This document shows, piece by piece, positions 7,763 to 48,805 of a stretch of DNA of 64,000 bases; the first letter of the stretch is position 1; every line of letters starts with the position of its first letter. Position numbers and translations under genes: made by a program. The notes beneath the pieces are model-generated. The model was given only the letters and a program-made list of their open reading frames with translations. It ran no database searches and was not told where the DNA came from. The DNA is from Podarcis pityusensis (lineage: Eukaryota), in NCBI GenBank assembly GCA_964106645.2, contig OZ067041.1; one strand, given 5' to 3'.

Positions 7763-7953
7763 TCACAGGGAACATTTTGAACTTCGTGACAGTGGAGGTG
7801 GTTTAGCTGACACTTTGCTTTGGACTGCAGATGAGGCCTTTTTATGGTCAAATCTCAGGCTGCGAATTGTGCTGTTTATAGCTGCAACACATGCTTTCCA
7901 GTCATATCCAGTTTCCTTCAGCTCAAAAGATGGGTAAGTCTCTTGCAGAAAGT
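7763..7953 (-). CDS. BEND2: BEND2 last coding exon (BEN domain 2 C-terminal half, stop TGA)
   Basis: DFLQETYPSFELKETGYDWKACVAAINSTIRSLRFD...KCSL*. Confidence 0.88.
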
Positions 7954-10613
7954 CTAATAATAAAAAAAGCAAGTTACAAATTGTTTATTAAAGTTTTATA
8001 TTGCTTAGTAAGTATTGAGTTGTACACTGTTCAGATTAGGCAAATTAAAGGCATCCTACTTTGAAGAGAGAATGCTACAGTACCCGTAACTGCTTCTGAC
8101 AAGCAACTACTAAATCAGGAATCCTACAAATGAGCAGTAAATGCCTTTTGGAAGAGCCTCATCAATATGATTGCTCCTCTGGTGCTGAGGAGCCCTGGTA
8201 TCCTAGGCAGCAGCGTGTGATGAAACAGGATGGAAGATGGTGGCACAGAACTCGCTCCAAAGCTGACTGAGCAGATTAGGGTGCATAATCGGACCTACCG
8301 TGCAGCAATAAGGGCAGCAAAGAAGTCCTACTTCACAGCCTCTAGTAATGATCCAGCAGAGCTCTTACAGACCACCTGGAATCTGGTCTCATGTGTAGGT
8401 GGGGACGGGCATTTGGAGGCCTCCTTTGACCATTTGGTCCATTATTTTGAAGATAAAGTCACTTGACACTGCAGCAATTTCGATGCTGCCATTATTGTAA
8501 CAATTCCACCTTGATCACTGAAATCTCTTGATGGGGCACTTCTGGTAGGTTGGCCTGAGATTTGGTTGGCCTATGCAGTAAAGACCAAACACTGAAACTG
8601 GCAAGCCCTGCTGTGGAACGCCCTACAAGTAGAGTTTTGGCAGGAAGCTACTCTGCCTCCTTTTAGACATATTCTGAAAGAGGTCTTGTTTAGACAGAAC
8701 TCCACAATATGAATTTCTTTTTCACCAACCAGTATCTCCTGATGTTTTATTAATGTTTTAAATCTTATGAATACATTTGCTGATTTTATTATATTTTGTA
8801 TACCACCCTGATATATCTTGTTAAAGAATAGTTTATAAATATTTGAATAAATATTTCACAGCCTGACAGCTCAGTCCTATATAATGTCTGCTCGGAACCA
8901 AATTGCACTGAGTTCCATGGGGGTTACTCTCCCGTTAAATTGCCTTTAGGGATTGCATCTCTCCTACTGAAACCGTTACTGACCTCTAAGAGCATTTATT
9001 TTGTTGCAGTCCAGTGGATGTGTGCCACGGTCCAGGTTGCCATACACATTGCTTTTTATCAGGATATTCTCTGTGAACAGATGACGTATCAGGTAGCGTG
9101 CTGAAAGTTCTGGCCGAGTTTTTCCCTTGGCTGCAAAAATAACTGAAAAGGGCAACTGGACATTCCTTGATGGGTTCCCAAGGTGTGCTAGAGAGGAGGC
9201 ATTTTTATTATTATTATTATGAAAAAGATTTCAAACCCTGTTCTTTAAGCAGAATGGCTCAAGAATGGTTGACAAATGTCAGCCCTAAGATTGTCAGTCT
9301 GAAAGCAGAGACCATCTAAAAAGCTTAGAAATCTAACTATCCTGTTTTGTTCTAAGTGGAATGGTTTCATGTTTGTTTTCAAAACTGATTAAAAATGAAG
9401 AGTTCTGTCTCTACATTGAGCAGATTCCTCCTAATTCTATATTTCTGAAATGCCTAAAGTAGGTAACTAAAACAAACCCATGTCTGCATGCTCAGTCTAA
9501 ACTGAAGCAGGGGAAAAATGAAGGACGATTTATCAGTCCGACTGCTAAAAGTCTAATTTAACTTGTGAGCTACCCAGCTAGGTATAACCCACCAGCCACT
9601 ATGCTCTGCAAGCTGCTTGATCGCCCCACCCCCATTCTTTCCCTCTTAGACAGACAAGGGGGGAAATGCAGGTTTTTAAATGCCTGGAGGACTGGTTTAC
9701 AGTGTTTGCATACTGCATATGGCTTGCACAGTTCTGACAAAGAAAACAAAGGTTCAGCAGCTTACCCATTGGCTCTAAAGAAGGTGGTTCACTGGAAGAA
9801 GGTGCATTTTTATTATTATCCCCTGTTGAATTCTGAAGCTGGTTTGATATTGAACTGGTTTGAGAATTGATGTCACTCTCTTCCCCAATATCAATTAAAT
9901 CTACACACATGGATGTGTCTGGAGCTTCAGGAGCTTTCTCTTTTCCCTCAGTGATCTAGGAAGCAATGTAGCAGGGAGGAATATTTCCATAACTAATGTA
10001 AAAATGCAGTAATAAACTTTTACAAATATCATAAGGAAGAAACTTAAATGAATTAAAGCAAGAACAATATTGTCTATTATTTTATTTCATAGTATTTTCA
10101 ATTGAGTAAGCTACGTTATTTTTGCTCTTGGCAATAGCAGTGACACAGTAGCAAAAGAGGTAGGCATTCTTCTGTAAATTCTCTATTCAATTTGAAACAT
10201 TCGAAGCAATGGCCGTGAATCACTACTTCAGTAACTAGAGATCTATAAATATTTTGTATCAATGAGCCTGAAACATCCTTAATACTTTCTGGGTTTCAGC
10301 GTTTATTATTAACTTCTGATTTCAAACTTAAAATAATTGCTTTCAGAGAAATGCAGTCTGGGCTAGGATGTGTTTATAGAGGCGTCAACACTAAGAAAGA
10401 ACTTACTGGACTTGTTTTGCTTTCATAACGTAAGCAGCGGATCATTGCATTCACATTTGTAATACAGGTTTTCCAGTCTTTCCCACGCTCACTTAGATCA
10501 TAACTTGGGAAATAAGCAGCAAGAAATTCTGCATTCAAAAACACAATTATTATTTTTAAAAGCACACTTATGTTACTATGAAACACCACGCTTCTGTTTT
10601 AAACAAACCATTG

Positions 10614-10666
<53 letters not shown>

Positions 10667-13600
10667 CCCGCCCATCTGGCTGGGCTTCCCCAAGCTACTT
10701 TGGGTGGCTTCCAACAAAATACTAAAATACAGTAATCCATCAAACATTAAAAGCTTCCCTAAACAGGGCTGCCTTCAGATGTCTTCTAAAAGTCTGGTAG
10801 TAGTTGCTCTCCTTGAAATCTGGTGGGAGGGCGTTCCACAGGGTGGGTGCCACTACCAAGAAGGCCCTCTGCCTGATTCCCTGTAACTTGGCTTCTCGCA
10901 GTGAAGGAACTGCCAGAAGGCCCTCGGCGCTGGATCTCAGTGTCCAGGCAGAACGATGGGGGTGGAGATGCTCCTTCAAGTATACTGGAGCGAGGCCGTT
11001 TAGGGCTTTAAAGGTCCACACCAACATTTGAATTGTGCTCGGAAACGTACTGGGAGCCAATGTAGGTCTTTCAAGACTGGTGTTATGTGGTCTCGGTGGC
11101 CGCTCCCAGTCACCAGTCTAGCTGCCGCATTCTGGATTAGTTGTAGTTTCCGGGTCACCTTCAAAGGTAGCCCCACGTAGAGCGCATTGCAGTAGTCCAA
11201 GCGAAAGCAAACCAGAGCATGCACCACTCTGGCGAGACAGTCCGCGGGCAGATAGGGTCTCAGCCTGCGTACCAGATGGAGCTGGTAAACAGCTGCCCTG
11301 GACACAGAATTGACCTGTGGCTCCAGGGACAGCTGCGAATCCAAAATGACGCCCAGGCTGCACACCTAGACCTTCAGGGGCACAGTTACCCCATTTAGGA
11401 CCAGGAAGTCATCCACACCAGCCCGCCTCCTGTCCCCCCAAAAGAGTACTTCTGTCTTGTCAGGATTTAACCTCAATCTGTTAGCTGCCATCCATCCTCC
11501 AACTGCCTCCAGACACTCACACAGGACTTTCACCACCTTCACTGGTTCTGATTTGAAAGAGAGGTAGAGCTGGGTATCATCCGCATATTGATGGACACCG
11601 AGTCCAAACCCCATGATGATCTCTCCCAGCGGCTGCATGTAGATGTTGAAAAGCATGGGGGAGAAGACAGAACCCTGAGGCACCCCACAAGTGAGAGCCC
11701 ATGAGAGTATCCATTTTGAGAGCTTGTGTAAATTGAAATATTTATGAAAATAAATACTGATTACCTGATTATAACCAGACAAAGGCGACTAGGTAGTAAA
11801 ATATGTTAAGAATATTTCATAAAGCAAAGAAAACCATATTTCATCTGAACTGAATTAAGTGCATGTATACCATCAGGCAAATTTGTTTGCTCCAGTTGCA
11901 ATAGGAACTGCCGTTTTTGTGTATGAATGTATGAAAACATGCAGTTTTTTGATACTTGCAAGTATAATCATACTTGCAAGTTAAAGGCAACATTAGGGAA
12001 AGAATGTCTGCAGAGGAGAAAAAGTGCCCAGCGAGGGTGGAGTTTAAACCTTCTCCTATTCACTATTCTCCCCCTTTCCATTGTCTCCTAGCCATATTTC
12101 TTTCTGTTGTTCTAGGCAGCTGGGGGGAAAGGAGAAAACCACTTGAGAGAGAAGGAATTGTGGATGAGAACTGGGAGGGAAATGATTAAGCACTTTTCTT
12201 CTTGGCTATTTCCTACCTACTGTTCTACTCTATCTAAATATTGGAAGAAAACATAAAACTGGAAACCCTGTCTGAGTCTTATTATATAGTTCTGGCCTAA
12301 GGAACTACCAAGGGTTGAAAATCTAACCCCTTCTCTTAAACCAGTGAGACATCAGACGGCGGTGAGCGTCCTGGGGGGCGCCGCTCCCGGCGATGTCACC
12401 CCCCTCAGGGGTGACACCCAGGGCGGACTGCCCCCACCTTGCTCCGCTACTGCGTGACATACCTCTGATTGCAGCGACCTTGTTTGGGTCTAGCGTCCTG
12501 CGTCCTCGAGCCCTTGTACCCATAACACTGCATAGCAATGTTTCTTTTGGGAACAAAACCCGGACCAAGTAGCGTGCAGCATACTTTGGCACGGTCTTTT
12601 GCCACGCTTTCATCAAATAGTTGCCAAGGACCTTCACATTCCGCTTTGGATCACCAATGAACTCTAGATAAAGGAAAATATTAGAAGAGTATTAAAACAA
12701 AATTGCACTGCACCCACTGCAAGTCCTCCAAAGTGCCATTCTGGGCTTCTAACATTTCACAGACATGGCCCACGTGTTTGGAAGCCCCCCCCCCCCCCCC
12801 GTTCAGTAAAGACACAATTCTTCTAACCTCTTAACCATGATTGAGAAACTGGGAATGGGCCACAGACTCCTTACCCCTTCTCCTGCAGCACATGAACTTC
12901 CCCATCCCTGCTCTTTTCACAAATAACAGTAGTGCAGTATTATTTCTACCCAGATAGTAATGCTAACCATCCTTGCAAAGTCTGGTTGCAAACTTCAGTG
13001 AGCTGTAGGGAAAGTCTCCTAAATATTCAGTCAAAAGAATAACACTCAATAAAAAAAGAAAAGGAAAAGGATGCAACACAGAAGCACCTTTTAAAACAGT
13101 GCCAGGCTGAGTGATGGACAGGGAAATGGTTGGAGGATAGTGGCTGCTATGAAAATACAACCTGCCATTATGCCCTTGTGACGCCTCCACCAAAGGGCAG
13201 GTACAATAGGGATGCCTTTTGCCTTTATGGAGCAGGAAGTGAGAAAGCAGAACATTGGTGCTATGAGAAACAGTGGGTGGCTACCTTTTCAGTTTAATGG
13301 AAGAATCCCTGTTCATGCAAAAGAGTGGAATTAAAGAAGGAATTAAGAGCTAAACACATTATTCTTATGAAAACTGTAACTCACCAAAATTATGACTCAT
13401 AGAAGAAGAAGAGGGTACCTCGTTACTAATATCTGTACCACCGGTTGAAGTTCTGTAAGTTACCAGCGTTTTTTTCCTCTCCAAACTGGTTTCAGATAAT
13501 ATCACTGGTGAGGGTACAGCTGAAGATTCTACCTGAGCTGGACTATCAGTAGTTGAAAGACTAGCTTGTGAAGGAAGGTCGGGCATCTTATTAGCTGTAA

Positions 13601-16600
13601 CTGGAGCATTCAATAAACGACTAGAGGCAACTGCTGAACTGGCAGAAACAGAAGATGACGAGGGTGGCTCATTACGAATACTTCTACTTCCAGGTGAAGT
13701 TTTGTTAGTCACTGTCCTATTGTTTCTCTCTAAATTAGCTGCCGGTGGTGTAGATGCTACTGATGACACCACTGGTGAGGCTATTGCCAAAGATGCGACA
13801 GAAACAGAGCTTTTGTTGACTAAGGTTGCTAGATTGGTTTGTGAAGGAATATTAGGCATGTCACTAGCCATGTTGAATGGGAGACATAGTGAACGGGTGG
13901 AAACAATTGTAGGAAGTGGTGGACTCTGCCTGTGCACAGGGGGCTGTGATTCAGGTTGAAGGGTGTGTGGAACTGGCTTAACCGCAGATCTGGTCAAAAT
14001 AGGAGCTCTTTGTAGCTTAACCTTCATGGGTTGGCTCTGACATCCATGCCCAGGGGGTAAGATCTGACTTGGCTTTCTTTCTGTTGCCTTCTGGATTCTG
14101 ATTTTTCCAGGCAAGAGATTTCTAGGACTTCTGTACGTAAACCTAAGTGGTCTCTGAAAAGGAGAGAAAAACATTGAGCAAACACTCCATTTTGCCACAC
14201 TGCTTGGCATTAGCCCCATTTGAAAAAGTGGAGATTATCAGGTGAGCACATACTGGAGGCAGGAGTACTCAAATGCTATGCTTTGAACGGAACTGAATTT
14301 ATATGTTCAGATTTGTTTTGCATCATGTTTTGTTAGCCATCTTAATCATAGTCTACAGTGGTACCTCGGGTTAAGTACTTTATTCATTCCGGAGGTCCGT
14401 ACTTAACCTGAAACTGTTCTTTAGCTAATGGGGCCTCCTGCTGCTGCCGTGCCGCCGGAGCACGATTTCTGTTCTCATTCTGAAGCAAAGTTCTTAACCT
14501 GAAGCACTATTTCTGGGTTAGCAGAGTCTGTAACCTGAAGCGTATGTAACCCGAGGTACCACTGTATTTGTAGCTCAAGCTATATAAAGTTATTTCAGCA
14601 ACTTTGAAAAAAGTTATACAATATAGGCTAGCCTTTTGTATGCAAACATTAGGTTTATGTTTTTGTGCAATGTTTTCTTATTACTATATACACAATCTTG
14701 CATTGTAATAGAAACCAAACTTGGGCCCTGTTAGGTGTACTGTGCTATCCCAAGCTGTACACAGTTATGTGCCTCTGGTACAGGGTTAGGGATGCACAGG
14801 ATGTTAGGATATTTCCGTTCCACCTTAAAAAGGACAGGCTGTTGTGAGTCACAGCCTGCGTACTTCCGGCTCACAGTAAGTTTCTGTTTTTGTATATAGT
14901 TTTTGTTTCTCTCTGTTGCCTTGACATGCAGTCAGGCAGTCATGTTCTTCCTTTGTTCTGACCAACGCTGAATAAAGCTGTAAATATGCTGCTCTCCTGA
15001 GTGCATCTTTCGTTGTGCGAACTCTGTGAAAAGGGCGTGCATGAGTCCTGGGATGTGGACAGCTATTTCCGAGGCTCGTGTCGCTAATTGACTGATACTG
15101 TATCTACGGGAGATTGATGGATCGTCCTGAGACGACGTGGAGTCATGATGGCCTTTGTCTCCCTAGCAGTATCCCAACACAGGGATGGGGGACCTGTGCC
15201 CTAGAGATACTGTTAGACTACAGCTCCAATCACTCCTGACCACTGGCTATGCTAGCCCATCCCTGCTCTAGTGCATGGCCAGATTAGAAGCTTAATGCCA
15301 TTTTTAAATCACAATGAAACACAATAAGAAAGACACCATTAAAGACAATTAGAAAATTAACAAAACATCAACAAAAACGAATTGCAACTACAGCAATTTA
15401 ATACTCACTGGTTTTAAAAGTAAAGGCTTTAACTGGGTGTGTTGCATTTCTGAGACCTTGCGATGAAGGCTCTCAAACTTCTCATCCAGTTTCAGAATGG
15501 CATCATACATGGCCTGCAAACATACATTTATTTATGTCAGATTGGAAGAGAGATTCAAAGCCAGCTGGAACTCAAGGGAGAAAACCAAGAAACTGGTGCC
15601 TAAACAGACCTTGTTTTGGAAGAACTTATAAAAGCAAGGATGGAGAACCATTAGTTGCTGGACTTGAACTCCTGTCTATCCCAGCCAATGGTGAGGGTGT
15701 AATGACATTTGGAGGGCCACACATTCCCTATCCATGACAAATGGCTTCTCAAACAAACAATGAAGGACGGCACAGTACCTGACAATAATTAAGGACTTCC
15801 ATAAGAGTTTTCTGCTGATCTCCTGCACATGAAGCTTCAGATACAACACTCCCCTAGTGTAAAGACAATGAAAATGTAACCCAGTCACAGGAATAATTGG
15901 AAACAAAAATGATAAAATAAAGCTCTCAAATTTAAAAGAAAGCAGTATTTTAATTTGCGCAGTTCCTCCTACAGAGAGGCTATAAATTATTTTTGGAAGT
16001 ATACATACACATTCATCATCAGGGTCGTATTCATAAATAACATCTCCATCTTCATATTCAGGCTCTTTGGCTCTCATCTAATAAAGATATTGAAATAAAG
16101 AATATAAATAACATAAATTATAACTGATATGGCACTTATAATCATTTGTTATTATTGTTCCGTGGGCTGACTAAGAAAAATTATTTTAATCCATACTAAG
16201 TTTTGTTAAGAAAAGCAGAACGCTGGTGCCACGCTGTGGATAAGAAATTCATTACATGGAAACGATCAATGTGCTCCACAGATACCGCTAATAGTTCATA
16301 GAAAGACAGTAAGCAGGGCTTATAGAAACAGTTTGAATTGTTATATTTTTGTGTCAGTTATTCGATAAAAGTTTATACAGTCATACCTCGGGTTACAGAC
16401 ACTTCAGGTTGCGTTTTTTTCGGGTTACAGACCGCTGAAACCCGGAAGTACTGGAACGGGTTACTTCCGGGGTTTGGAGGTCGTGCATGTGCAGAAGCGC
16501 CAAATCGCAATGCTCGCATGCGCAGACGTGCCACTGCGGGTTGCGAATGTGCATCCTGCACGGATCACGTTCGCAACCTGAGCGTCCACTGTATTTTAAT

Positions 16601-19600
16601 GCTGGGATAAGCTGATTTCAGTCTTTTGCAGTCTACTTAAAAAACAACCCCTAAAACCCTAGAATCTCTGTGACCCAAATTAAGTTATTAATCTGAGGTA
16701 CCACTGTACAAGTAATTTATTGGAATATACTTACCCCCGTTAAAGAGGATGCAAGTCGGCGCCTTTTACGTAAATAAACTAATTCCATTTGTTCTGGATT
16801 GCGACTGAGCCTTGGCGCACTTGTTGAAAGATTTTCCTGTGATCCAGCTTGCTCCTCTATATCCAATAAATCTTCATTACCTTCTAAAAATGTAAGTTAG
16901 GCAGTGTCTTAATAATGCCTTAGATACCACTCAAGAAAGATTTAATTTAGTTTTATACCTCACTATCCCAATTAATTAGTCTTCTCACAGAATGCTACAT
17001 TAAAAAAGTATTTCCAGAAAATTTGATTCACTGTGGGTAAGATTTCAAATCTGGCACTGGAAGGGTAGAAATCTGGAGGTCACAAGTTTTGGCTTGGCTA
17101 CAGTACCAAGGCCAGACAAAAATTATGCTTCCCTAGATAACATCGCTGAACCCCCCTATATGAAAAGTCATAATCATCTTTCAAAATGAAATTAAACATA
17201 ATTACCATATGTAAGATGAGTTACATAGCGACCATCACACTTCCCTTGAGTTTTAGGTCCATTTTCTGTATCTTCCATTTCTGAATCATCAATTATTACA
17301 GTGTTGTCATCATCTTCAGTGTGCACTGCAATATAGCCTAAAACATGTACACAGCAGGGGAGATGAATTAGATGCTATTAAGTACAGTAGTTTACACTTC
17401 TCTGTATAAGCCCAACAGCCCAATGTATCTACAATAAAAGCCTTTTATTGAACCATATAGTAGATTTTTTGTCTACTTTGCTTTATAATTTAAAATAACG
17501 TAAATAAAGCAGCCTTCTCTCCCCCCCCCCCCGCCCATTCAAGTTAATGGAAGAATTCGGTTGACTTGTACTACAATCACAAACCTCCACTTTCCACATG
17601 GAAAGTGAAGGTCTAGAGAAAATGGCTTTCAAATTAAGCACAGCTGCACGTTGATAAGTACTGCTCCTCCCAAGCAGTTATGACCATCCAGTCACCGAGA
17701 ATAAAACTTCATTCCCACAGATTAATTCTTATTCACCCAAGGTTAAAGAATAAAGATGAGGTGGGGCAGGGGGGAAGTGTAGTGAACCTGTTTAGCAGGT
17801 TTGAAGAGACTCGCAGTTATAATAGCAATAATAGCGTGCAGCTGATTCATATGGAAACGCACAGTAAAAGAACAATGCAATAAGTTCATCTTAAAAGTAG
17901 CCTGAAATATCACAAAATAAAGGGGCAGAAGTTAGGAGCATGCAATGTGTGCATCACACAAAACCAAGAATCAGCACTGTACTGTCCTTGGTGGAGGGAA
18001 TGCTGGATTGTGGATTGGACTCAGGTCTTGCATCACTCATTTACTTCCTTATTAATTGTTTGGGGTACATTTCACTTTGTACCTATTAGAGCTGCGCTTG
18101 CTTCACTTTTCCCTTGTCTCCCTTTTTATTTTAGGAGGGAGGCTTTGGGCAAAAAAACAAAAACAAGACTTTCCAGTGGTTATATTGGAAAGGATGATGT
18201 GTTCATTTGACTTTTAGATTATGCAAAGCACATGCATAGGCTTGCCCAATTACGCTCCTAATTGTCTCCTGAGTAGATTCCCCCCACTCTCACCAATCTA
18301 TTGAGCAAAGCACAGAATCCTAGTTTGACCTGGATACATAAAATAGGAGTTAATGAAATGTCTTATTGGATGCTAAGACTTACAGTACCCTATCATTAGG
18401 TATGAAGCACTTAAATTTTACCACAAGAATAAGTGTACCTCTTTTAAGGACACAAAACCCAAGGATCAATGACAGCCAAAGAAAAAGACATCAGAACAAA
18501 GATGACAGCTGTACCATTCAATATGGCTCCATTCAATGCTTTTGCGGGGGAAACCCCCTTTTTTAAAGGGAAAAATGTGTGTACTAAACACCCACCCACA
18601 CCCCGACACTTTATTTTTTCTGCTGCAAAGCAGGTCCATGCAGCTGCCTTGTTTCTGGTGTTAGAATGACAATACATGGCCTAATACTTCCTCATTTTTT
18701 AAAATGTGATCACAGTAACCACTATGTTTTAACTTTTGTGTTCAACATGGGTGTGAGACAATTTCTTGGTATGAACTCCCACCACTGGCTCTTTGGGATA
18801 CTGTCTGGATTTCCTCATTTTATCTTATTTGTTTAAATAATTGTTTGAAATAACAGTTTGGAAATGAAAGGGAAAAAATTAAGCACCTTTGGATGGAATA
18901 ATTTCACCTTTCCATTCTTGTTTTCAAAGACACCTTACAAAGTTATAGGAAAATTAAGCACACCACAAAGGTATAATTTCTACAACTCTCAGGAAGCTGC
19001 TGTTCTGAGCACAGGACTGGTTTTAGGTTTGATGTGGCCCTAAGCTACTGAAGGTAACGGGCCCTTTATATGTCCAGCTGTCCTTTGTCAACAGCAGCTG
19101 TTTTTTTGTGTTGAATATATGCTATATGGTAATTTATGGACCTAATAGGTATCTAAAGCCATTTGCACATAACAGGAGCCTACACAACACAAAACACTGT
19201 TGCTGTGTGTAGATTTTATTTTGTTTTTTATCTTATATTTTGGATATGTACATCCAGATTTTTTTCCCCTTTAAATTTTTTTGGGGCCCCCAAAAGAGTG
19301 GGGCCCTAAGCTATAGCTCGTTTAGCTTATACGTAAATCCGGCACTGTCTGCGCAGTCAGAACGGCCCTTTTACTCTCAGCTTTAAAGTTTAGATGGACG
19401 ACTGCGCTGCCATTGTACACACAACTGAGCGATGCTCATTTCTGAGGAAACACACGTAAGACCGCTCAGGGTGGCTGCAGTCTTGTGCCCCATCGAGCAC
19501 AGAGGGACACGGACCTGCGTCTCCCCGCTCCCTCCGCACGAGAACGGCTTCCTCGAGCCACCTGCCGTGCAAACGGCTTCCCGGTGTTCAACGGCAACGC

Positions 19601-20076
19601 ACGCGCACGCGCAGTGGCGAGGGAAGCATTTTCGTACATGCTCGGTTCCTTCGCGTAACACAGCTACAGAAGGTGGGCGCCCGCGTCCTCCCCACACTCC
19701 GCGCTCACCAAGGTAGCGAGATTTCATTATCCCCTCAGTTCAATAAGGTTTTATTCGCCCGCCAAAGAAATCTCAAGCCTGGCCTCGTTTTCCCCGCCCG
19801 TTAATCTCAAGCAGTCTTGGTTACCCCCCCCCCCCGCACACGAGTCGACGTAACGCTGACAGACAAGCGCGCTGCGCAATAGCAGCGCCGCTGAGCACGA
19901 AGCGGGCCAATAAGAGCTCAACACGGAGGTGGCACCTCGCGAACGGCTCGGCTGCTTGAGCAACGGCCGTTTGCGCGTCCAGCCGTTGGAAACGTTCCTT
20001 GTTTGCGCATGCGGGCAGGCGGCGGGTGGGCTCCCGGCTCCCTGTCCGTTTCTAGCTTCTTACCTTTGGCAGACAT
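7763..20076 (-). CDS. BEND2: BEN domain-containing protein 2, complete 12-exon gene, about 730 aa; join(20076-20064,17337-17233,16883-16735,16077-16009,15853-15779,15513-15409,14153-13385,12663-12463,10528-10407,9955-9766,9187-8984,7953-7763)
   Basis: Exon lengths 13+105+149+69+75+105+769+201+122+190+204+191=2193 nt (731 codons including the stop); all introns GT-AG with matching phases. The two BEN domains (FIGDPKRNVKV...LDPNKVAAIREFL...DWKTCITNVNAMIRCL and HLGNPSRNVQLP...LSARYLIRHLF...SNVYGNL...NKINALRDFLQETYP...DWKACVAAINSTIRSLR) match recalled human BEND2. NHS and BEND2 are also linked in mammals. Confidence 0.88.
8150..8850 (+). mobile_element. Old degraded L2/CR1-clade LINE fragments
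   Basis: ORF 8230..8466 (YRAAIRAAKKSYF) resembles LINE ORF2; followed by a degenerate L2-like 3' end (ctgtggaacgccct...). Confidence 0.45.
8984..9187 (-). CDS. BEND2: BEND2 exon 11 (BEN domain 2, N-terminal half)
   Basis: AHLGNPSRNVQLPFSVIFAAKGKTRPELSARYLIRHLFTENILIKSNVYGNLDRGTHPLDCNKINALR; not in the ORF track, read by hand; AG/GT sites, 204 nt. Confidence 0.92.
9766..9955 (-). CDS. BEND2: BEND2 exon 10 (inter-BEN linker)
   Basis: ITEGKEKAPEAPDTSMCVDL...SLEPM; ttcctag acceptor, ATGG|gtaagc donor, phase 0 to 1. Confidence 0.8.
10407..10528 (-). CDS. BEND2: BEND2 exon 9 (BEN domain 1, C-terminal half)
   Basis: EFLAAYFPSYDLSERGKDWKTCITNVNAMIRCLRYESKTSP; CCA|gtaagt donor. Confidence 0.92.
10614..11701 (-). 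mobile_element. 5'-truncated L2-clade LINE (reverse transcriptase C-terminal part plus (TTA)n tail), disrupted
   Basis: GVPQGS, QYADDTQLY, LRLNPDKTE, RLDYCNALY and HITPVLKDLHWLPV motifs; in-frame TAG at 11366-11368 and a frameshift near 11030; lies in BEND2 intron 8. Confidence 0.92.
12463..12663 (-). CDS. BEND2: BEND2 exon 8 (BEN domain 1, N-terminal half)
   Basis: EFIGDPKRNVKVLGNYLMKAWQKTVPKYAARYLVRVLFPKE...LDPNKVAAIR; AG/GT sites, 201 nt. Confidence 0.92.
13385..14153 (-). CDS. BEND2: BEND2 exon 7 (Ser/Pro/Thr-rich disordered region)
   Basis: Within ORF 13365..14219; ttttctctccttttcag acceptor, TTTG|gtgagt donor, 769 nt, phase 0 to 1. Confidence 0.85.
14356..14564. mobile_element. Tigger-like MITE
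   Basis: CAGTGGTACCTCGGGTTA TIRs, TA TSD; same family as the copies at 20797, 53866 and 59763. Confidence 0.88.
14802..15179 (+). mobile_element. Solo LTR (Gypsy-like, 378 bp) in BEND2 intron 6
   Basis: TGTTAGGATA...TATCCCAACA termini, cagga/caggg 5-bp TSD (4 of 5), internal AATAAA 14971-14976. Confidence 0.7.
15409..15513 (-). CDS. BEND2: BEND2 exon 6 (AMYDAILKLDEKFESLHRKVSEMQHTQLKPLLLKP, coiled-coil-like)
   Basis: tttgcag acceptor, CCA|gtgagt donor, 105 nt, phase 0-0. Confidence 0.8.
15779..15853 (-). CDS. BEND2: BEND2 exon 5 (GSVVSEASCAGDQQKTLMEVLNYCQ)
   Basis: tttacactag acceptor, CAG|gtactg donor, 75 nt, phase 0-0. Confidence 0.75.
16009..16077 (-). CDS. BEND2: BEND2 exon 4 (MRAKEPEYEDGDVIYEYDPDDEC)
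   Basis: ctttattag acceptor, TGT|gtatgt donor, 69 nt, phase 0-0. Confidence 0.7.
16378..16591. mobile_element. Tigger-like MITE with GCGCATGCGC-rich core
   Basis: TA-CAGTCATACCTCGGGTT...CCACTG-TA; related copy at 63874. Confidence 0.8.
16735..16883 (-). CDS. BEND2: BEND2 exon 3 (EGNEDLL...YLRKRRRLASSLTG, basic NLS-like motif)
   Basis: ctaac branch point plus tttttag acceptor (NAGNAG), GGG|gtaagt donor, 149-nt open frame, phase 1 to 0. Confidence 0.75.
17233..17337 (-). CDS. BEND2: BEND2 exon 2 (GYIAVHTEDDDNTVIIDDSEMEDTENGPKTQGKCD)
   Basis: ttttag acceptor; acidic N-terminus as in mammalian BEND2. The donor GATG|gtcgct is weak but is the only phase-1 option found. Confidence 0.65.
19012..19347. 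mobile_element. hAT-type MITE
   Basis: CAG...CTG ends (caggactggtttta / taaatccggcactg), 8-bp TSD tctgagca/tctgcgca. Confidence 0.7.
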
Positions 20077-20480
20077 GGTGCCGAAAGAGAGGAGGAGGGA
20101 GGGGAGCCGCGGACGGTCGCGACGCGGCGAGGCCCAGCGACGGAACAGACCCGGAGTCGGGACGCGGAAGCGGCTGCAGCGACGTGAGGCACAAAACAGT
20201 TTCGGTTACCCTTGCGGCTGCGCAGTGGGGACTTGGGCGCGTCTGGCAAACGGGCGGCCGAGGGAGGGCGCGCTGAGGTGGTGGCTTCGCCTGTCCCTTA
20301 CAGCGTTTGCGGGAAACGGCCTTGAGAGAGCGCCCTTCCCTCCGTCGCCTCTCCCACCCCACGAGATTTCAGGATGTGGTGACGGCAAGCACACGCTCAA
20401 CAGGCTCTGTTTTCTGCGGCACATGCAGCCGTCGCTGGCAGCGCCACTATTCCCTCGCTGCTCACTTGGTTCGGTTGTGA
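19350..20480. promoter_or_regulatory. CpG island / BEND2 promoter and first intron
   Basis: The only long GC- and CpG-dense non-repeat block; contains BEND2 exon 1, CCAAT 19907-19911, NRF1-type TGCGCATGCG 20004-20013, E2F-type sites at 19759-19766 and 20309-20316, and MYB-type YAACGG sites. Confidence 0.88.
20064..20076 (-). CDS. BEND2: BEND2 exon 1 coding part (MSAK/G)
   Basis: Minus strand reads ggcaccATGTCTGCCAAAG|gtaaga: good Kozak context, consensus donor, phase 1 matching exon 2; lies inside the CpG island. Confidence 0.8.
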
Positions 20481-20796
20481 GGGGATGGCAGAGGGATTCA
20501 AGGAATGAAAGAAACCAGTACCTTGATTATAAGAGTTGTAGGTGAATGGGCTCGCCAAGTTGCTTGCCTATAAGCAAATACTTACAGAGCACGAAGTGTT
20601 CTCTCACTGTTTTCAGATGTTGTAGTAGACATTATCTTAGGAGAGGCTTCCCTGAGTTAGGAAATGGGCCTTTTTTAAGCTAGTGCTTGCAGCCTGCAAT
20701 TTTCATAAGTACTTACATTCAAAATGATAAAATAAGATCCCTTGGGGCGGGTGTGTGTGTTGTGAGTTCTTCTCAAGTATCCACCTTCCCATAGTA

Positions 20797-21019
20797 CAGT
20801 GGTACCTTGGGTTACATACGCTTCAGGTTACAGACTCCGCTAACCCAGACATAGTGCTTCAGGTTAAGAACTTTGCTTCAGGATGAGAACAGAAATCGTG
20901 CTCCAGCGGTGCGGCAGCAGCAGGAGGCCCCATTAGCTAAAGTGGTGCTTCAGGTTAAGAACAGTTTCAGGTTAAGAACAGACCGGAACGAATTAAGTAC
21001 TTAACCTGAAGTACCACTG
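20797..21019. mobile_element. Tigger-like MITE
   Basis: CAGTGGTAC TIRs, TA TSD; inverted relative to the 14356 copy. Confidence 0.88.
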
Positions 21020-21836
21020 TACATATAAGACACATAGATAATTTCTACTATTTAGCATTTAGCAACAACAGAAGATTGAAATGTGCTGTTCTTGCACAAA
21101 AATATTTTTGATCACAATTTGATTTTGTTTTTGATTCCTGACAAGATAGACATAAAAGGGAAACTATGGGAACCGATGTGTGATTAGTGGGGCTTTCTTT
21201 CTGAGATTATTTGTAGCAGTGAAAGCCCTAAAATCTAGATTTCAAACTTTTTGACCGTAGCTAGCCTTAACAGCACACAAGCCACTGCATGTTTAGTAAG
21301 CAATAACTTGAACAAAGGCTTGAATCCTGAAGTCATTCACTAGAGAGCAAGGCCTGTTGAAGACAGTGAGGCTTCTGAGTCTGAGTAAACATGCATATGA
21401 TTGCATATACCCTGGAAGTTGGCCATTTATACTTGGAATGGTACAAAAGGACAAAGTAAAATCTGAGTAAAATAGCTATTAAGAAGCTGGTTTTGGTGTT
21501 TTAGTTTGATTTTGTTTGTTTGATATCACAAGTGCTCAGGGTTGGGTATAGCAGTAGTAAATTCAGAATAATAAAGGTGACGGTGTGTGCAAGTGGTATG
21601 AAGCTGGGGCTCTGCTATTGGTTGATGAACACTTGTGTAACTTTACCCTCTGCTTAATTTTCTTGTTTCTAGCACGTATCTGTTAGAAATGCTTTGTGGC
21701 CGAGTTGGGATTTTAACTTGCATCTAATGGTCCTAATCCAAACTCCTACATTATAACACTGAGCAAAGATGAAATCTGAACAATGCATAATGAACTTGTG
21801 GAATCTGGTGCCACAATAGATTATGATGACCTATAG

Positions 21837-21971
21837 CAAGAGTAGCCAATGTGGTTCCCCCCAGAAGTTTTTGGACTACAATACCCACAAGCCCCAGCCA
21901 GCATAACCAATGGGGAGGGATGATGGGAGTTGTAGTCTAACATCTGGAAGACACCACATTGGCTATCCCTG
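21837..21971. mobile_element. Palindromic hAT-like MITE (ggactaca...tgtagtc family)
   Basis: tagccaatgtggt...accacattggcta inverted ends; related pieces at about 15180-15270 and 51650-51815. Confidence 0.55.
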
Positions 21972-22377
21972 GCCTATAGTTTAGGTGGCTTTAAAAGGGG
22001 ATTAGACAAATCCTTGGAGGAGTCTGCTGCAATCATGTTCTCATGTACTTGGCGGTAAATCCCACTGAACTCAATGGACGGAGCTTCCTTCTGAGCAGAC
22101 ATACAGAGGATTGCACTATATGACTTATCGTTGGCGATAGATCAGGAGAGCTATCGTCTACTTCCGGGTTTAGAAGAGGCATAGATTTGAAGCACAATCT
22201 GGTAAGGAGCAACTGTAAGGAACGACCGTTGCTTTCATGCCCCTGTTTGTGAGCTTCCCAGAGACATTTGGTTGGCTGTGGTAGGAAAGGGGATGTTGGA
22301 TCAGGCAGACCTTTGGCAGACCTCTTGCATTGATTGCAGTGAAGCGAAGAGAATGGAGCAGTTTAATTGCAGTCACG

Positions 22378-25300
22378 TTTATTTGCCATTTCTATACACA
22401 CTTCCTAGATAATCAAACTTTTCTGACACATTTTAGAGAGGGGGTTCACAATGAAACTGTCACTGTTTTTACTAAAAATAAATACAAGACTTAAAGTGTT
22501 GCACAGCTCTAAAATATACAAAGGCTTGGATTTAATGTAAACTTTGAAAACATTTTACAAAAGAAACCATCTTTGCAACAATTTAAAAAGTTCATATTTA
22601 CAAATATTACAAAAATACAAAATGGATGCAAGTCCATAAACCATTGTCTCTTCTGCCAGCATGAACTGGTGATAGTACCAAAATAGTTACACTGTAACCT
22701 TCTTAATTGGTTTTTTTTTTTAAACTTTTAAGTCATAACCTACAGTATTTCTCTAAATCTGCCACAATTGCAGCAAATGCACTCTATCAGTGACCTTTGG
22801 CAAATGCAAACATATGCTTTATTTGCTTCAGCTAATCCATATTCTCTATGCTGCCACAATATTAAAATAGGAAAGAAAAAATGTTATTGAAAGAAAAGAT
22901 CAAACAAACAGCTGCATAACTTCAAAAACCATTCTTGTAACATCAGTGCAAACAACATAATTGAAAGTTGGAATGATGGCTCACAAATTACTTATGTGTT
23001 TATACCCTGTTTCAAGATGGGATGTGTTTTGAGGGCTCTGACGACACTACTTGTGAGCACAGTCCTATGCATGTTTACTTGCAAGTAAGTCCCACTGCAT
23101 TCAATGAGGCATGCTCTCAGGAAACTGTGCATAAGATTGTCGATTTGGGTTGTTTTTATCTCCAAATTTTATCACCCTGGTCTAGAGATCTATGCACTCA
23201 TACACAGGCAAGGAGCTATTGCTGGTTATTCCCATTAACGTCAATGAAAGGGCATCACTGTGTGCATAAAGTTATGCCCCATCCTCAGTTCTAACGGGAG
23301 CAACCCTTGTGGGCAGCAGAGCTCCATTTGCCAACCATCTATTGCTGAATCAGGGGTTGTTTGCTAATATATATATTTTAAAGTGGATTTACAATCCATA
23401 TTCATTTGGGCTTTTAATCTGATAAACAGAAAATAGAAACACTTTGTCATAGATTTCTGAGTAAACAAAATAAGTTTTTTATATGATAGTTTTGTGAGCA
23501 TTACATAAGAAGGTGTTTCACTGCCTTCTAATTCAAGTTGCATGTATTTTTTTTAAATATATCTCTCTATATTTATATAGCTCTCTGTGGTATCAATACG
23601 AAATCATTAAATGCCTTGGAGTGTTATCCACAATGGAGGCGTTCGCCAGCCTCAGTGCACTGTGGATGGCACCTGCAAGACTGACATCTTGGAGAAACCA
23701 ATTCAGCTGTTTTCTATAACAGTTTTGCTATAAAACACATTAGCATTTTTTAAACAAATGAATTTGGCACTTGGATCCTAAACATGTGGTGGTGATATTT
23801 CTGCCTGTGACACTGAAGCAATGCCATTGGTGATGCTCCATTGTTAGCACCAAGAGTTGAGACTCAGTTGTCTTAGCATCAGGAGTTTGTAAGGGTACTC
23901 TGGCAGTAATTGAAAAGTGGCCTCAAATGGCACTTGTGCCTCCCATATCAAATTTATTATATTGTTCTTTTCTTTTTTTTAAACTACATGAATCTTGTCA
24001 ACCCACTAATGCTTTCTACTTCACTTGCTATTTGACCACTTTTTAGAGCTTGCTTAGTAGCTCTATTAGACTGCAATCCTGAATACATTTCCTGGGAGTA
24101 AGTCCCATTTAACTTTATGGGACTTACTTCTGAGACAACATGCATAGGATTGCACCATTAGACTTGCTTGTAATACTAACTAACACCTCTCTATTACACA
24201 TCCCTACCAAACATTTAGGTTAGGTTTTGCTTATAGCAGTCCAGATCCTAAATGTCTGCCCCAGCATATCTACCTACTCCGCCTCCATAACATCTCTGCA
24301 GTGTGCCAGAATGTTGTCATAGTTAGTGACAACATACTGGCTCAGAAGTGCAGATGGCCCATCCTAAATCTTTATTTGCCAGCATGGCAAATTTTAGAAT
24401 TGGACCAGTGATTTCCTGTTCTCACTAGTCTTTTTACACACATGCTTACCATTCATCTTTTGCCACACTGGAGGACTATAAGAAAACCTAAAAAAAGAAA
24501 ACCTTGTATATTTTTCACGAGCCCCTGATGAAGATGAACTTCAACAATTTGTGACTAATTTTGAATGTTATTATTTGCTCGATCATTTCAACTACAAACA
24601 ATATATTTAAGCTTATCCTTATGAGCAAACTAAAAAGTAATCCTCCCTCTGCTTTCCACCCCTTCTAAATTCCTAGTAAAACTTATTTCTGCTTGAAGCC
24701 AACTTATTTGTAGACTTACTAGTGACTATCAACTTAATTCTGCCATTTGATTCAATCTGTCCTGCACAACACATTCCTCCTTAAAACTGCCCTCAGCACT
24801 AAACCTTCCTGCATTTGTATTCCACAGTTAATATCAATGGACTGCATTTTAGAAAACTGGGCCTGAATGTCTATTTGATTTTGGAGTCTATTGCAATGGG
24901 GAAACTGATGCATCTATGGAAAATATTCTATTCTAAAATTAGTGACATTGTTTTGTGCATATGAGTGTGTGTTTTTTAAAACCCCTGTTGTACTTGATCT
25001 CATATCAATTTGTTTTTGCTCCTAGTTTTCCGACAAGAAAATTCAAGTAACTTCAAGTAATCCAGCTTTTGTTTCCCTGCCTTCATTTATTCAAAGTATT
25101 TGCTTGGATTCCTTTTCTACCCCACCCACTACATATTCCCACCCTGTTAAGCATTTCTGGTAAAGCCAGGACCAAAAGAAACTGAGCTGTATGTGGCTGG
25201 CATAATAGACCAAAGAGCTTCCCCATTCCAAGTTTAGTAAGCTATATGTAAGTTTAGTAAGTATGCATACATACACCTATTTCTCAGCTATTTTTTTTCA

Positions 25301-26907
25301 CAGTGTCATTTTCTAAATATTTAGGTAGCATGAATGTTGTCCGCACAAAGCTTCACTGAAAAGTTGTTACACAATTTTATTGATGAATCAAGAGCATTTG
25401 TTGCATGCTTAATAGTTATTTACTTTATGAACATGAAACTAATCTTGTTTCAAGATTTACGTTACCAGGTTATGACTAGGTCACCCAACAGCCTAGTAGT
25501 AGTAGTAATATGAAAACATTTCCTTATACTTGCCCCCTCTTTACAGTAATTGTTCAAATTAAGTGTCAAACATCAGAGTAAAGTCTGACAGCTCATATTT
25601 TGCATTTAGAAGAGGGGGAGGTGTTTATTTTCCTATTTAAAGTGTGCTTTTTACCCGAACAATTGTTGTTCTTGTTCTTGTTATGGTTATGGAGGCACTA
25701 GAAACTTAAATCCGTTTAACAGATGTGGCTTCCCCCAAGAAATCCTGGAGTTGTAGTTGTGTAATGGGGCTAAGAATCTCTATGGCATGTGTGGGCAACC
25801 TTTGGACTGCTAAGTCCCCCCCCCCCATGCTTCTGAATTTTGCTGTTTACATGCAAAGGAAAACACACAGAGGGAATCATCGTTGTGAGCCTTCCTTGCT
25901 ATATAAATTGCACTCTCCATAGGTTGCCAAATACAATGGGGAGGAAGATGTCTGGGAAGAGAAAATAGGATTAACTTGATTTAAGAGACTGATATTATTC
26001 TCATTCTACCAACTGCAGTCTGACTAACTACACTTCTCTAGATTCTTGGCAGGGGATTGGGAGAAGCCTCAACTGCAAATCTGGTTTATAAACAGTTTGT
26101 ATTTGTAGTGCCTGCCAATAAGCCTCTTGCCACAAGCTGCTCTTCGAAATTAGCTTGTTTGGAACAGCACTTTTGGAAAGAAAATTGATCAGATAATATC
26201 AAATTAATCTTATAATAATATTTTATTCAGATTTCCCCAAATTAAAGGGTTAAATTTGTGTTAGAGGCTTTCATTATTCAATTACAAGTGGTAGATATGT
26301 AAATTATGTTTGATATTAAAATTGTATTCACAGAATACAGTCAGTACCTTTTTTAATCCTTTTTTTGTCTTTCAACAAGGTTATCGTTTGCCACCAACCA
26401 ATTTTCTCTCTGATAATTCTATTTACACATGTTTATCAAAAATATGGATATGTACATCTGTTTTGTTCATTTCTTCTAAATTTTGTTTCTGTTCATTTTA
26501 ATGTAAAAAAATACCAATTCCTCAAGCAATTTAATGTTTTTTCCCTAGGGAAGCACAACAGTGAAGGTAATGTTTTTGATCCTAAATGACATCTTTGGAG
26601 GGGCAGAGGGAATTCTGAAAATTGGATAATGTAAATCTACATTGACAATGAGAAACATGAAGACAAATGAAATGAAAGTTAACCATTTAGTAAATTTCTA
26701 CTTATAGAAAAATGTGAAGTAATAAATAGCTACAGATCATCTTCTCATCTCCCAGTCTCTTAAGCAACCCTTAGCATTTTCAAGCATCAATATTGCCCTG
26801 CATGGTATTTGACTGCTACAGAATTGGCCTTTTATAGTCAGGTGAGCCAAGTGATTGCAGAGTCCTCCCATTTAACAGTCAGAAGTGTGCTCTGGCCCAG
26901 GTGTAGC
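22378..26907 (-). other. NHS: Putative long NHS 3'UTR (about 4.4 kb)
   Basis: AU-rich and largely free of long repeats; candidate poly(A) signals on the minus strand: ATTAAA 22531-22536, AGTAAA 22468-22473, AATAAA 22378-22383. The end point is inferred. Confidence 0.5.

Positions 26908-48805
<21,898 letters not shown>

What the first reader, a model, noticed from the sequence alone, without database searches (positions are those of the whole stretch)
7763..26908. Gene order NHS then BEND2 (same strand, adjacent) implies an inversion in mammals with breakpoints in BEND2 and SCML2
Seen in sequence: the BEND2 start codon is under 7 kb downstream of the NHS stop, same orientation, with no intervening gene. 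Recalled human Xp22 order: NHS(+) SCML1(+) RAI2(-) BEND2(-) SCML2(-). Inference: an ancestral NHS>BEND2>RAI2> <SCML2 arrangement, inverted between the inside of BEND2 and the 3' end of SCML2 with staggered duplication, reproduces the human order. It would also put SAM exons behind the BEND2 5' exons, giving SCML1. This predicts RAI2 on the minus strand and then a convergent SCML2 to the left of this window.
Basis: partly seen in the sequence, partly recalled or inferred. Interest (0 to 1): 0.7.

Follow-up and report, generated by a model that had tools for sequence, protein, structure and literature searches.

The report
SCML1: BEND2–SCML2 fusion at an inversion
In this lizard the genes run NHS, BEND2, RAI2, SCML2 with no SCML1 found, and the placental-mammal testis gene SCML1 matches BEND2 at its front and SCML2 at its tail, so SCML1 likely arose as a fusion gene at the edge of an inversion with duplicated ends, probably in early placental mammals.

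Summary
An intact, spliced 12-exon BEND2 starts 6,832 bases after the NHS stop, same strand. Left of the window come RAI2 (minus), tail-to-tail with SCML2 (plus), then CDKL5, RS1, PPEF1. Published human order is NHS, SCML1, RAI2, BEND2, SCML2 (most strands recalled).

New here: SCML1 is a chimera. Its non-SAM part scores 70–125 bits against 12 of 12 non-placental BEND2 proteins and under 5 bits against 16 of 16 SCML2/SCM controls. It covers BEND2 exons 4–7. Its SAM tail groups with placental SCML2, and the joined exons are both phase 1. All 14 such chimeras found are placental. Armadillo BEND2 keeps decayed copies of those exons, so they were duplicated.

One inversion with duplicated ends explains all of this most simply (inferred). 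The lizard SOBP–SCML4 paralogue pair and bird map data favour the lizard order as ancestral. Marsupial and monotreme gene order was not obtained, so the timing is inferred.

The parts
29053..32094 (-). NHS large coding exon (1,014-aa open frame, stop to stop)
   Evidence: Pfam NHS E 4.8e-298
28551..28685 (-). NHS penultimate coding exon (approximate ends)
   Evidence: 87% identity to a camel NHS model
26908..27543 (-). NHS last coding exon, stop at 26910-26908 (5' end approximate)
22378..26907 (-). Probable NHS 3' UTR up to the last AATAAA
   Evidence: motif scan; inferred, not shown by RNA
19001..21000 (.). CpG island at the BEND2 start; by position the likely ancestor of the SCML1 promoter
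   Evidence: CpG o/e 0.99 and 0.82; link to SCML1 inferred
20064..20076 (-). BEND2 exon 1, coding part (start codon 20076)
   Evidence: same N-terminus as Lacerta agilis BEND2 P0003
17206..17337 (-). BEND2 exon 2 (acidic; recognisable in armadillo BEND2)
16735..16883 (-). BEND2 exon 3 (basic, NLS-like run; retained in armadillo BEND2)
16009..16077 (-). BEND2 exon 4, phase 0-0; homologous to an SCML1 exon skipped in some isoforms
15779..15853 (-). BEND2 exon 5, phase 0-0; start of the long helix shared with SCML1
15409..15513 (-). BEND2 exon 6, phase 0-0; predicted coiled-coil helix shared with SCML1
13385..14153 (-). BEND2 exon 7, low complexity, ends in phase 1; last BEND2-like part of SCML1
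12664..13384 (-). BEND2 intron 7: lizard counterpart of the inferred fusion breakpoint interval
   Evidence: inference; intron shown by RNA
12463..12663 (-). BEND2 exon 8, first half of BEN domain 1
10407..10528 (-). BEND2 exon 9, second half of BEN domain 1
9766..9955 (-). BEND2 exon 10, linker
8984..9187 (-). BEND2 exon 11, first half of BEN domain 2
7763..7953 (-). BEND2 exon 12, second half of BEN domain 2 and stop

Best explanation
The lizard shows the order NHS > BEND2 > RAI2 > < SCML2, which is likely ancestral, and placental SCML1 is a chimera of BEND2 exons 4-7 and the last two SCML2 exons that likely formed at the left junction of one inversion with duplicated ends, probably on the placental stem. 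Inferred mechanism: the segment from the BEND2 promoter through RAI2 to the intron before SCML2's penultimate exon was reinserted upside down. BEND2's promoter and exons 1-7 stayed in place beside NHS, and SCML2's last two exons stayed on the right. At the left junction, BEND2 exon 7 (phase-1 donor) met the inverted SCML2 penultimate exon (phase-1 acceptor), which gave an in-frame helix-plus-SAM protein, SCML1. At the right junction, the BEND2 5' copy came to lie behind SCML2's 3' end. Both parent genes survived. The duplicates then likely split the load: SCML1 kept the long N-terminal helix (predicted coiled coil) and placental BEND2 let it decay while keeping the BEN DNA-binding domains. SCML1 would then be a self-assembling nuclear scaffold with no known DNA-binding domain. 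That would fit its reported place in the meiotic dense body, but this last step is untested.
For: SHOWN. Lizard order on C4: PPEF1(-), RS1(+), CDKL5(-), SCML2(+), RAI2(-), BEND2(-), NHS(-) (PPEF1, RS1 and CDKL5 named from recalled motifs). A profile of the non-placental BEND2 N-terminal block found 66 proteins; of 46 scanned, 13 carry SAM_1 and no BEN, and one more is just under the cut. All 14 of 14 are placental, from Afrotheria, Xenarthra, Laurasiatheria and Euarchontoglires, and 12 are named SCML1 by their sources. HHalign of SCML1 against BEND2: probability 99.8, E 1.2e-27, 176 columns. Reciprocal profile of SCML1 without SAM: 69.5-124.5 bits on 12 of 12 non-placental BEND2, under 5 bits on 16 of 16 SCML2/SCM controls. 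SCML1 isoform skips and alternative acceptors in hippo, sheep, rabbit, marmoset and a bat fall at the lizard BEND2 exon 3/4, 4/5, 5/6 and 6/7 boundaries. A profile of the 48 residues before the SCML1 junction hits armadillo BEND2 at 15.7 bits (next best 4.4) among 31 proteins. The phases match, 1 and 1. SAM tree: SCML1 is one group, sister to placental SCML2 (98/89 with 34 rows; 100/98 with 29 rows); forcing all SCML2 together without SCML1 gives p-AU 0.049 and 0.0095. Armadillo BEND2 keeps a decayed exon 5-6 block (17.6 bits). A camel gene model fuses NHS exons directly to SCML1 exons, so the two are adjacent on one strand. Polarity: the lizard paralogue cluster on C3 runs BEND3, SOBP(+), SCML4(-), also tail-to-tail. 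Duck SNPs assigned to SCML2 and RAI2 lie 23 kb apart (PMC13054014), and one chicken BAC is listed as carrying SCML2 and RAI2 (PMC3297585). The lizard genome search finds the BEND2 N-terminal block only here (2 matches).
Against: No marsupial, monotreme or amphibian gene order was obtained, and no marsupial or monotreme SCML2 is in the tree, so timing rests on intact platypus and bilby BEND2 proteins and on not finding non-placental chimeras. The search for short chimeras (18 hits of 58 candidates) also missed the placental SCML1s, so its blank is weak. No mammalian DNA was examined: breakpoints come from protein homology, and a single event cannot be told from two or three linked ones. Only one placental BEND2 (armadillo) was examined, and it scores -2.7 bits against the SCML1 profile. 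The exon-7-end match is weak in pairwise tests: 3 of 6 SCML1 segments reach z 2.3 or more against armadillo BEND2, and some SCML2 controls reach z 3.8 by chance. I picked the junctions by eye. The stretch just after the junction was not significant pairwise in most cases. The tamandua SCML1 lies on a different contig from tamandua SCML2, so it may be a relocated copy. Human strands of RAI2, BEND2 and SCML2 are recalled. The bird data show proximity only, not strand. BEND3 points the other way from SOBP, unlike BEND2 and RAI2.
Confidence: 0.72

Rival explanations
1. Same chimera, several steps: a segmental duplication of BEND2's 5' half or SCML2's 3' end made SCML1, and a separate inversion or transposition swapped BEND2 and RAI2.
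For: All protein evidence fits equally well. The locus is rearrangement-prone today: six SCML1 copies with interleaved inversions in marmoset (PMC13041921) and duplication-triplication in patients (PMC2701339).
Against: It needs both duplicated pieces to coincide with the two ends of the flipped block by chance. One event with two junctions explains the chimera, the swap and the survival of both parent genes.
Confidence: 0.18
2. The event is older (therian or mammalian stem), and marsupials or monotremes lost SCML1 or were missed.
For: No marsupial or monotreme gene order or SCML2 was available. The short-protein search was insensitive.
Against: Bilby and platypus BEND2 keep the block well conserved (120.8 and 107.5 bits against the SCML1 profile, versus -2.7 for armadillo), as expected if there was no second copy. 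14 of 14 chimeras are placental. PMC2950125 dates SCML1 to branch 6, after the marsupial split.
Confidence: 0.07
3. The human order is ancestral and the lizard (or sauropsid) order is derived.
For: Direct order with strands was read in one lizard only.
Against: The paralogue pair SOBP/SCML4 is also tail-to-tail, with the BEN gene outside. Birds have SCML2 next to RAI2. SCML1's SAM domain groups with placental SCML2. Non-placental BEND2 is intact from shark to platypus.
Confidence: 0.03

Closest known systems
SCML1 as a partial duplicate of SCML2 (Wu and Su 2008, PMC2459175)
   Same: C-terminal exon structure and SAM domain come from SCML2; the gene is mammal-specific and testis-biased.
   Different: That paper calls the N-terminus 'totally different' and gives no source. 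Here it is traced to BEND2 exons 4-7, about three quarters of the protein, and tied to the gene-order change.
Inversions with duplicated ends (paired-duplication or staggered-break inversions in human patients and Drosophila; recalled, papers not read)
   Same: A flipped block is flanked by inverted copies of both ends, so neither broken gene is lost.
   Different: This case is old and fixed, and one junction became a lasting protein-coding gene. Junction DNA was not examined.
Young chimeric testis genes such as USP6, Sdic and jingwei (recalled)
   Same: In-frame fusion of the 5' part of one gene to the 3' part of another; testis bias; fast evolution.
   Different: The two donors are near neighbours on one chromosome, the 5' half appears to stay at its ancestral site with its promoter, and the parent copy decayed in the donated exons.
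BEND2 (Ma et al. 2022, PMC9132480; PMC12367297)
   Same: The window gene has the same two C-terminal BEN domains, and nearly all close hits that carry a name are called BEND2.
   Different: Non-placental BEND2 carries a conserved N-terminal helix with no Pfam family. It is decayed in armadillo BEND2 and preserved in SCML1.

Membership tests
BEND2 (window gene) | Two C-terminal BEN domains | tested here: met
   Pfam BEN, 2 stretches in P0002; window model identical at 718 of 739 residues
BEND2 (window gene) | Intact, spliced, transcribed gene | tested here: met
   Open 739-codon frame; RNA joints and minus-strand reads in related organisms' runs
Chimeric gene (SCML1) | 5' part homologous to gene A (BEND2) and not to gene B | tested here: met
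Chimeric gene (SCML1) | 3' part derived from gene B (SCML2) specifically | tested here: met
   Best lizard match of both SAM exons is SCML2; tree and AU tests
Chimeric gene (SCML1) | Frame-compatible junction at exon boundaries | tested here: inconclusive
   Lizard donor and acceptor are both phase 1; the SCML1 intron itself was not read in mammalian DNA
Inversion with duplicated ends | Middle block reversed between unchanged flanks | tested here: inconclusive
   Order swap shown (lizard; human order); NHS-SCML1 same strand; other human strands recalled
Inversion with duplicated ends | Both end segments present twice | tested here: met
   BEND2 exons 5-7 in SCML1 and, decayed, in armadillo BEND2; SAM exons in SCML1 and SCML2. 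One placental BEND2 only
Inversion with duplicated ends | One event with two junctions | not testable with these tools
   No mammalian genomic DNA available
Placental-specific origin | Marsupials and monotremes have the lizard order and no SCML1 | tested here: inconclusive
   Intact BEND2 and no chimera found; gene order not obtained
Coiled coil (shared block) | Long amphipathic helix with heptad repeat | tested here: met
   One predicted helix, residues 70-116 of the fragment, pLDDT 92-96 in its core; 9 of 12 a/d positions hydrophobic in 5 of 6 sequences, 8 of 12 in armadillo. A prediction, not a structure

The most novel reading that the evidence does not exclude
Human SCML1 is not mainly an SCML2 paralogue. 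It is the in-place 5' half of the ancestral BEND2 gene, given a Polycomb SAM tail by a single duplication-inversion-duplication on the placental stem. BEND2 then split its functions: the oligomerising helix went to SCML1 and the DNA-binding BEN domains stayed in BEND2. The inverted SAM copies still exchange sequence, as in Camelus SCML2.
Probability: 0.6. Interest if true: 0.65.

Novelty: new member of a known kind. Interest (0 to 1): 0.58.

Why it matters
It gives a source for the unexplained three quarters of a human X-linked testis gene that is under positive selection and has been linked to azoospermia. It ties that gene to BEND2, a meiosis regulator, as well as to SCML2. It defines a conserved helix domain with no Pfam family and predicts domain-swap experiments. 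It adds a small X-added-region inversion that was not among the X rows seen in a 300-kb-resolution breakpoint list. It also explains why automatic annotation names truncated bird and gar BEND2 models 'SCML1'.

Tried and rejected
Outgroup gene order from papers. Searches gave only the duck table and the chicken BAC. Supplement searches found no gene rows in PMC9550189 (12 of 13 files), PMC7849413 (11 of 28 files), PMC8081666 (3 files) and PMC13054014. Unsearched supplement files and figures may hold such data. RefSeq accession order was considered as a proxy and dropped: the needed proteins from one assembly were not in hand, and hippo SCML1 and SCML2 accessions are about 1,000 apart.

Papers not held: Abhiman 2008, Bellott 2010 and 2014, Papanikos 2017, Brand 2015 (ids recalled, except those of Papanikos 2017, taken from reference lists). 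Papanikos 2017 could mention the BEND2 link.

A G-alpha-like first exon between BEND2 and RAI2 was rejected: 0 of 84 G-alpha matches lie on C4, and the stretch is an interspersed repeat (150 of 150 scored candidates match). Of 53 other long ORFs between BEND2 and RAI2, one is a reverse transcriptase piece and one gave weak coiled-coil hits.

ESM Atlas gave only a BEN-family cluster at 0.76. Self-association of the SCML1 helix: no verdict. Earlier findings of this scan: none. No indexed holder on record as RNA was listed; raw RNA runs were laid instead. One hit of the profile search is a chemotaxis protein, taken as chance (P0182).
Full report
1. Observation. The window is C4:66,278,001-66,342,000 of the own genome. 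The organism is a lacertid lizard close to Podarcis, judged by protein identity. NHS-family exons lie on the minus strand and end at 26908. BEND2 begins 6,832 bases further on, at a CpG island. Its 12 coding exons give one open frame of 739 codons with canonical splice sites. RNA reads and contigs from related organisms list 9 of the 11 joints, imply a tenth, and put raw reads on the minus strand; the exon 1-2 joint was not among the rows shown. Rfam found nothing in the window, and 0 of 8 ORFs in the NHS-BEND2 gap matched Pfam.

2. Neighbourhood. I read 320 kb to the left. RAI2 (SOBP family) is on the minus strand about 117.5 kb beyond the BEND2 stop. SCML2 is on the plus strand, and its stop is 7.5 kb from RAI2's. 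CDKL5(-), RS1(+) and PPEF1(-) follow; these three were named from recalled motifs. Read along NHS, the order is NHS > BEND2 > RAI2 > < SCML2, CDKL5 >. Of 53 long ORFs between BEND2 and RAI2, none matched a cellular gene family above its cut-off. Human order from case reports is NHS, SCML1, RAI2, BEND2 (CXorf20), SCML2 (PMC10204325; PMC2701339). In the latter, a deletion from the last NHS exon runs 4.3 kb further into sequence upstream of SCML1. A Camelus ferus gene model runs NHS exons straight into SCML1 exons, so these two share a strand. The minus strands of human RAI2, BEND2 and SCML2 are recalled. So in placentals SCML1 sits where BEND2 sits in the lizard, and BEND2 and RAI2 have swapped places.

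3. SCML1 is a BEND2-SCML2 chimera. A profile of eight non-placental BEND2 N-terminal blocks found 66 proteins among 1.84 billion representatives. I scanned 46 of them; the 20 left out are fragments of 34-172 aa. Thirteen carry SAM_1 and no BEN (best E 5.9e-21), and a fourteenth is just under the cut. All 14 are placental: hippo, tiger, sheep, muntjac, two bats, beaver, pocket mouse, rabbit, galago, lemur, marmoset, aardvark and tamandua. Twelve are named SCML1 by their sources. Human proteins were not in my sets. Profile-profile comparison gives probability 99.8 over 176 columns, from BEND2 exon 4 into exon 7. The reciprocal test is clean: 12 of 12 non-placental BEND2 proteins, from horn shark to platypus and bilby, score 69.5-124.5 bits, and 16 of 16 SCML2/SCM controls score under 5. 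Isoform differences in SCML1 records fall at the lizard BEND2 exon 3/4, 4/5, 5/6 and 6/7 boundaries, all phase 0. The 48 residues before the SAM exons match armadillo BEND2 (15.7 bits, next best 4.4, 31 targets), and the weak non-placental hits mostly fall at the end of exon 7. Pairwise tests of this stretch are weaker and noisier, and I chose the junctions by eye. The tail comes from SCML2's last two exons. Those are the best lizard matches for both halves of the SAM domain. In trees SCML1 is one group, sister to placental SCML2, to the exclusion of lizard SCML2, SCMH1 and SCML4 (98/89, 34 rows). Support is 100/98 after leaving out two long SCML1 rows, camel SCML2 and two arthropods. AU tests of an SCML2-only clade give 0.049 and 0.0095. 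In the lizard, BEND2 exon 7 ends in phase 1 and SCML2's penultimate exon begins in phase 1, so the join would be in frame. Four BEND2-like exons, one exon upstream and two SAM exons give seven coding exons, which fits the eight exons (first untranslated) reported for human SCML1 (PMC2459175); this count is my inference.

4. Duplication, not transfer. Armadillo BEND2 keeps exon 3, a decayed exon 5-6 helix (17.6 bits) and the exon 7 end, yet it scores -2.7 bits against the SCML1 profile. SCML1 thus resembles lizard or platypus BEND2 far more than this placental BEND2 does, which would hide the link in comparisons within one placental species. This rests on one placental BEND2.

5. Polarity and date. 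The lizard paralogue cluster on C3 has BEND3, then SOBP(+) tail-to-tail with SCML4(-) (paralogue names inferred from domains and recalled synteny), the same layout as RAI2 and SCML2, although BEND3 points the other way. Duck SNPs assigned to SCML2 and RAI2 are 23 kb apart, and a chicken BAC is listed with both genes. The lizard has one detectable copy of the N-terminal block. PMC2950125 puts SCML1 on branch 6, after the marsupial split; the aardvark and tamandua proteins push it back to the placental root. The tamandua copy lies on a different contig from tamandua SCML2. Marsupial and monotreme order was not obtained.

6. Mechanism (inferred). Ancestor: NHS > [B1-7] B8-12 > RAI2 > < [S-last two] rest of SCML2. 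Product: NHS > [B1-7]::[S-last two] > < RAI2 < B12-8 [B7-1] < [S-last two] rest of SCML2. Two template switches or one pair of staggered breaks give this in one step. My odds: chimera about 0.97, lizard order ancestral about 0.95, placental stem about 0.85, single event about 0.8. The shared block is predicted to be one 47-residue helix with a heptad pattern. Helix plus SAM without BEN or MBT suggests a self-assembling scaffold. SCML1 is reported in the meiotic dense body and is dispensable for mouse fertility (as cited in PMC9782464). This functional step is untested.

7. What is known. PMC2459175 says SCML1 and SCML2 share C-terminal exon structure 'with totally different N terminus'. Full-text searches: SCML1+BEND2+SCML2 gave 2 papers, SCML1+BEND2 gave 5, SCML1+'BEN domain' 0, RAI2+SCML2+synteny 0. 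The 30 listed of 217 papers for SCML1/eutherian/chimeric/marsupial never mention SCML1. Of the 5, I read passages of one, a deletion gene list; the other four hold each term once and were seen as listings only. The human-lineage breakpoint rows I saw in PMC9550189 have none at X:17-18 Mb for mammalia>theria or theria>eutheria, at 300-kb resolution. The similarity is implicit in databases: three truncated bird BEND2 models and one gar protein without SAM are auto-named SCML1. Subscription papers, including Papanikos 2017, were not searchable, so prior mention cannot be excluded.

8. Papers seen. PMC2459175: first fifth of the text, passages, section 14. PMC9132480, PMC10204325, PMC2701339, PMC3297585, PMC13041921, PMC12367297, PMC9782464 and bioRxiv 10.64898/2026.10.14.758906: keyword passages. 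PMC13054014: Table 1 passage and supplement search. PMC2950125: one supplement row and passages. PMC9550189: passages, part 2 and rows 96-118 of supplement 8. PMC7849413 and PMC8081666: supplement searches only. Paired-duplication inversions, USP6, Sdic and jingwei are recalled.

9. Verdict. Chimeric genes and inversions with duplicated ends are known kinds, but this origin for SCML1 was not found in the papers searched. Interest 0.58.

Noticed in passing
Proteins P0235, P0300, P0306 versus P0302: SCML2 of all three Camelus species carries an SCML1-like patch of about 12 residues in the first SAM exon; alpaca and other placentals do not. This looks like gene conversion from SCML1 into SCML2 between the inverted copies. 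Camel SCML1 for that exon was not available.
   Followed up: partly
Proteins P0208, P0209, P0210, P0160: Truncated BEND2-type models of starling, tinamou, merganser and gar are auto-named SCML1 although they have no SAM domain; these look like misannotations.
   Followed up: yes
G000:C3:49,779,461-50,097,769: Paralogue cluster BEND3(-), SOBP(+), SCML4(-) mirrors BEND2, RAI2, SCML2; a likely whole-genome-duplication relic.
   Followed up: partly
window 13385-14153: Squamate BEND2 exon 7 is longer than in turtle, bird or platypus and appears to hold an internal repeat of its Ser/Pro-rich part; armadillo BEND2 has several tandem copies of the exon 7 end.
   Followed up: no
Protein P0001 (bilby BEND2, 1,056 aa): Exact internal repeat of exons 7-9, giving three BEN domains; a recent tandem duplication or an assembly artefact.
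   Followed up: no
Protein P0157 (tamandua SCML1): Lacks most of the large exon and lies on a 95-Mb contig, while tamandua SCML2 lies on a 175-Mb contig; possibly a relocated or retroposed copy.
   Followed up: no
window 10690-11790: High-copy LINE-like fragment with broken reverse-transcriptase-like frames (recalled resemblance) in BEND2 intron 8; further short high-copy repeats near 14350-14570, 16350-16700, 19020-19340 and 20790-21020.
   Followed up: no
L019:1551-3275 (G000:C4:66,099,551-66,101,275, minus): Open 575-aa frame resembling a Tigger/pogo transposase (recalled resemblance) between the SCML2 and CDKL5 CpG islands.
   Followed up: no
L007:5439-5618 (G000:C4:66,223,439-66,223,618): GC-rich stretch between BEND2 and RAI2 that reads like a G-alpha first exon but is a high-copy interspersed repeat.
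   Followed up: yes
Proteins P0160, P0177 (gar, bowfin): Fish BEND2-like paralogues with the same helix block; the gar protein also has a Myb/SANT-like domain.
   Followed up: no
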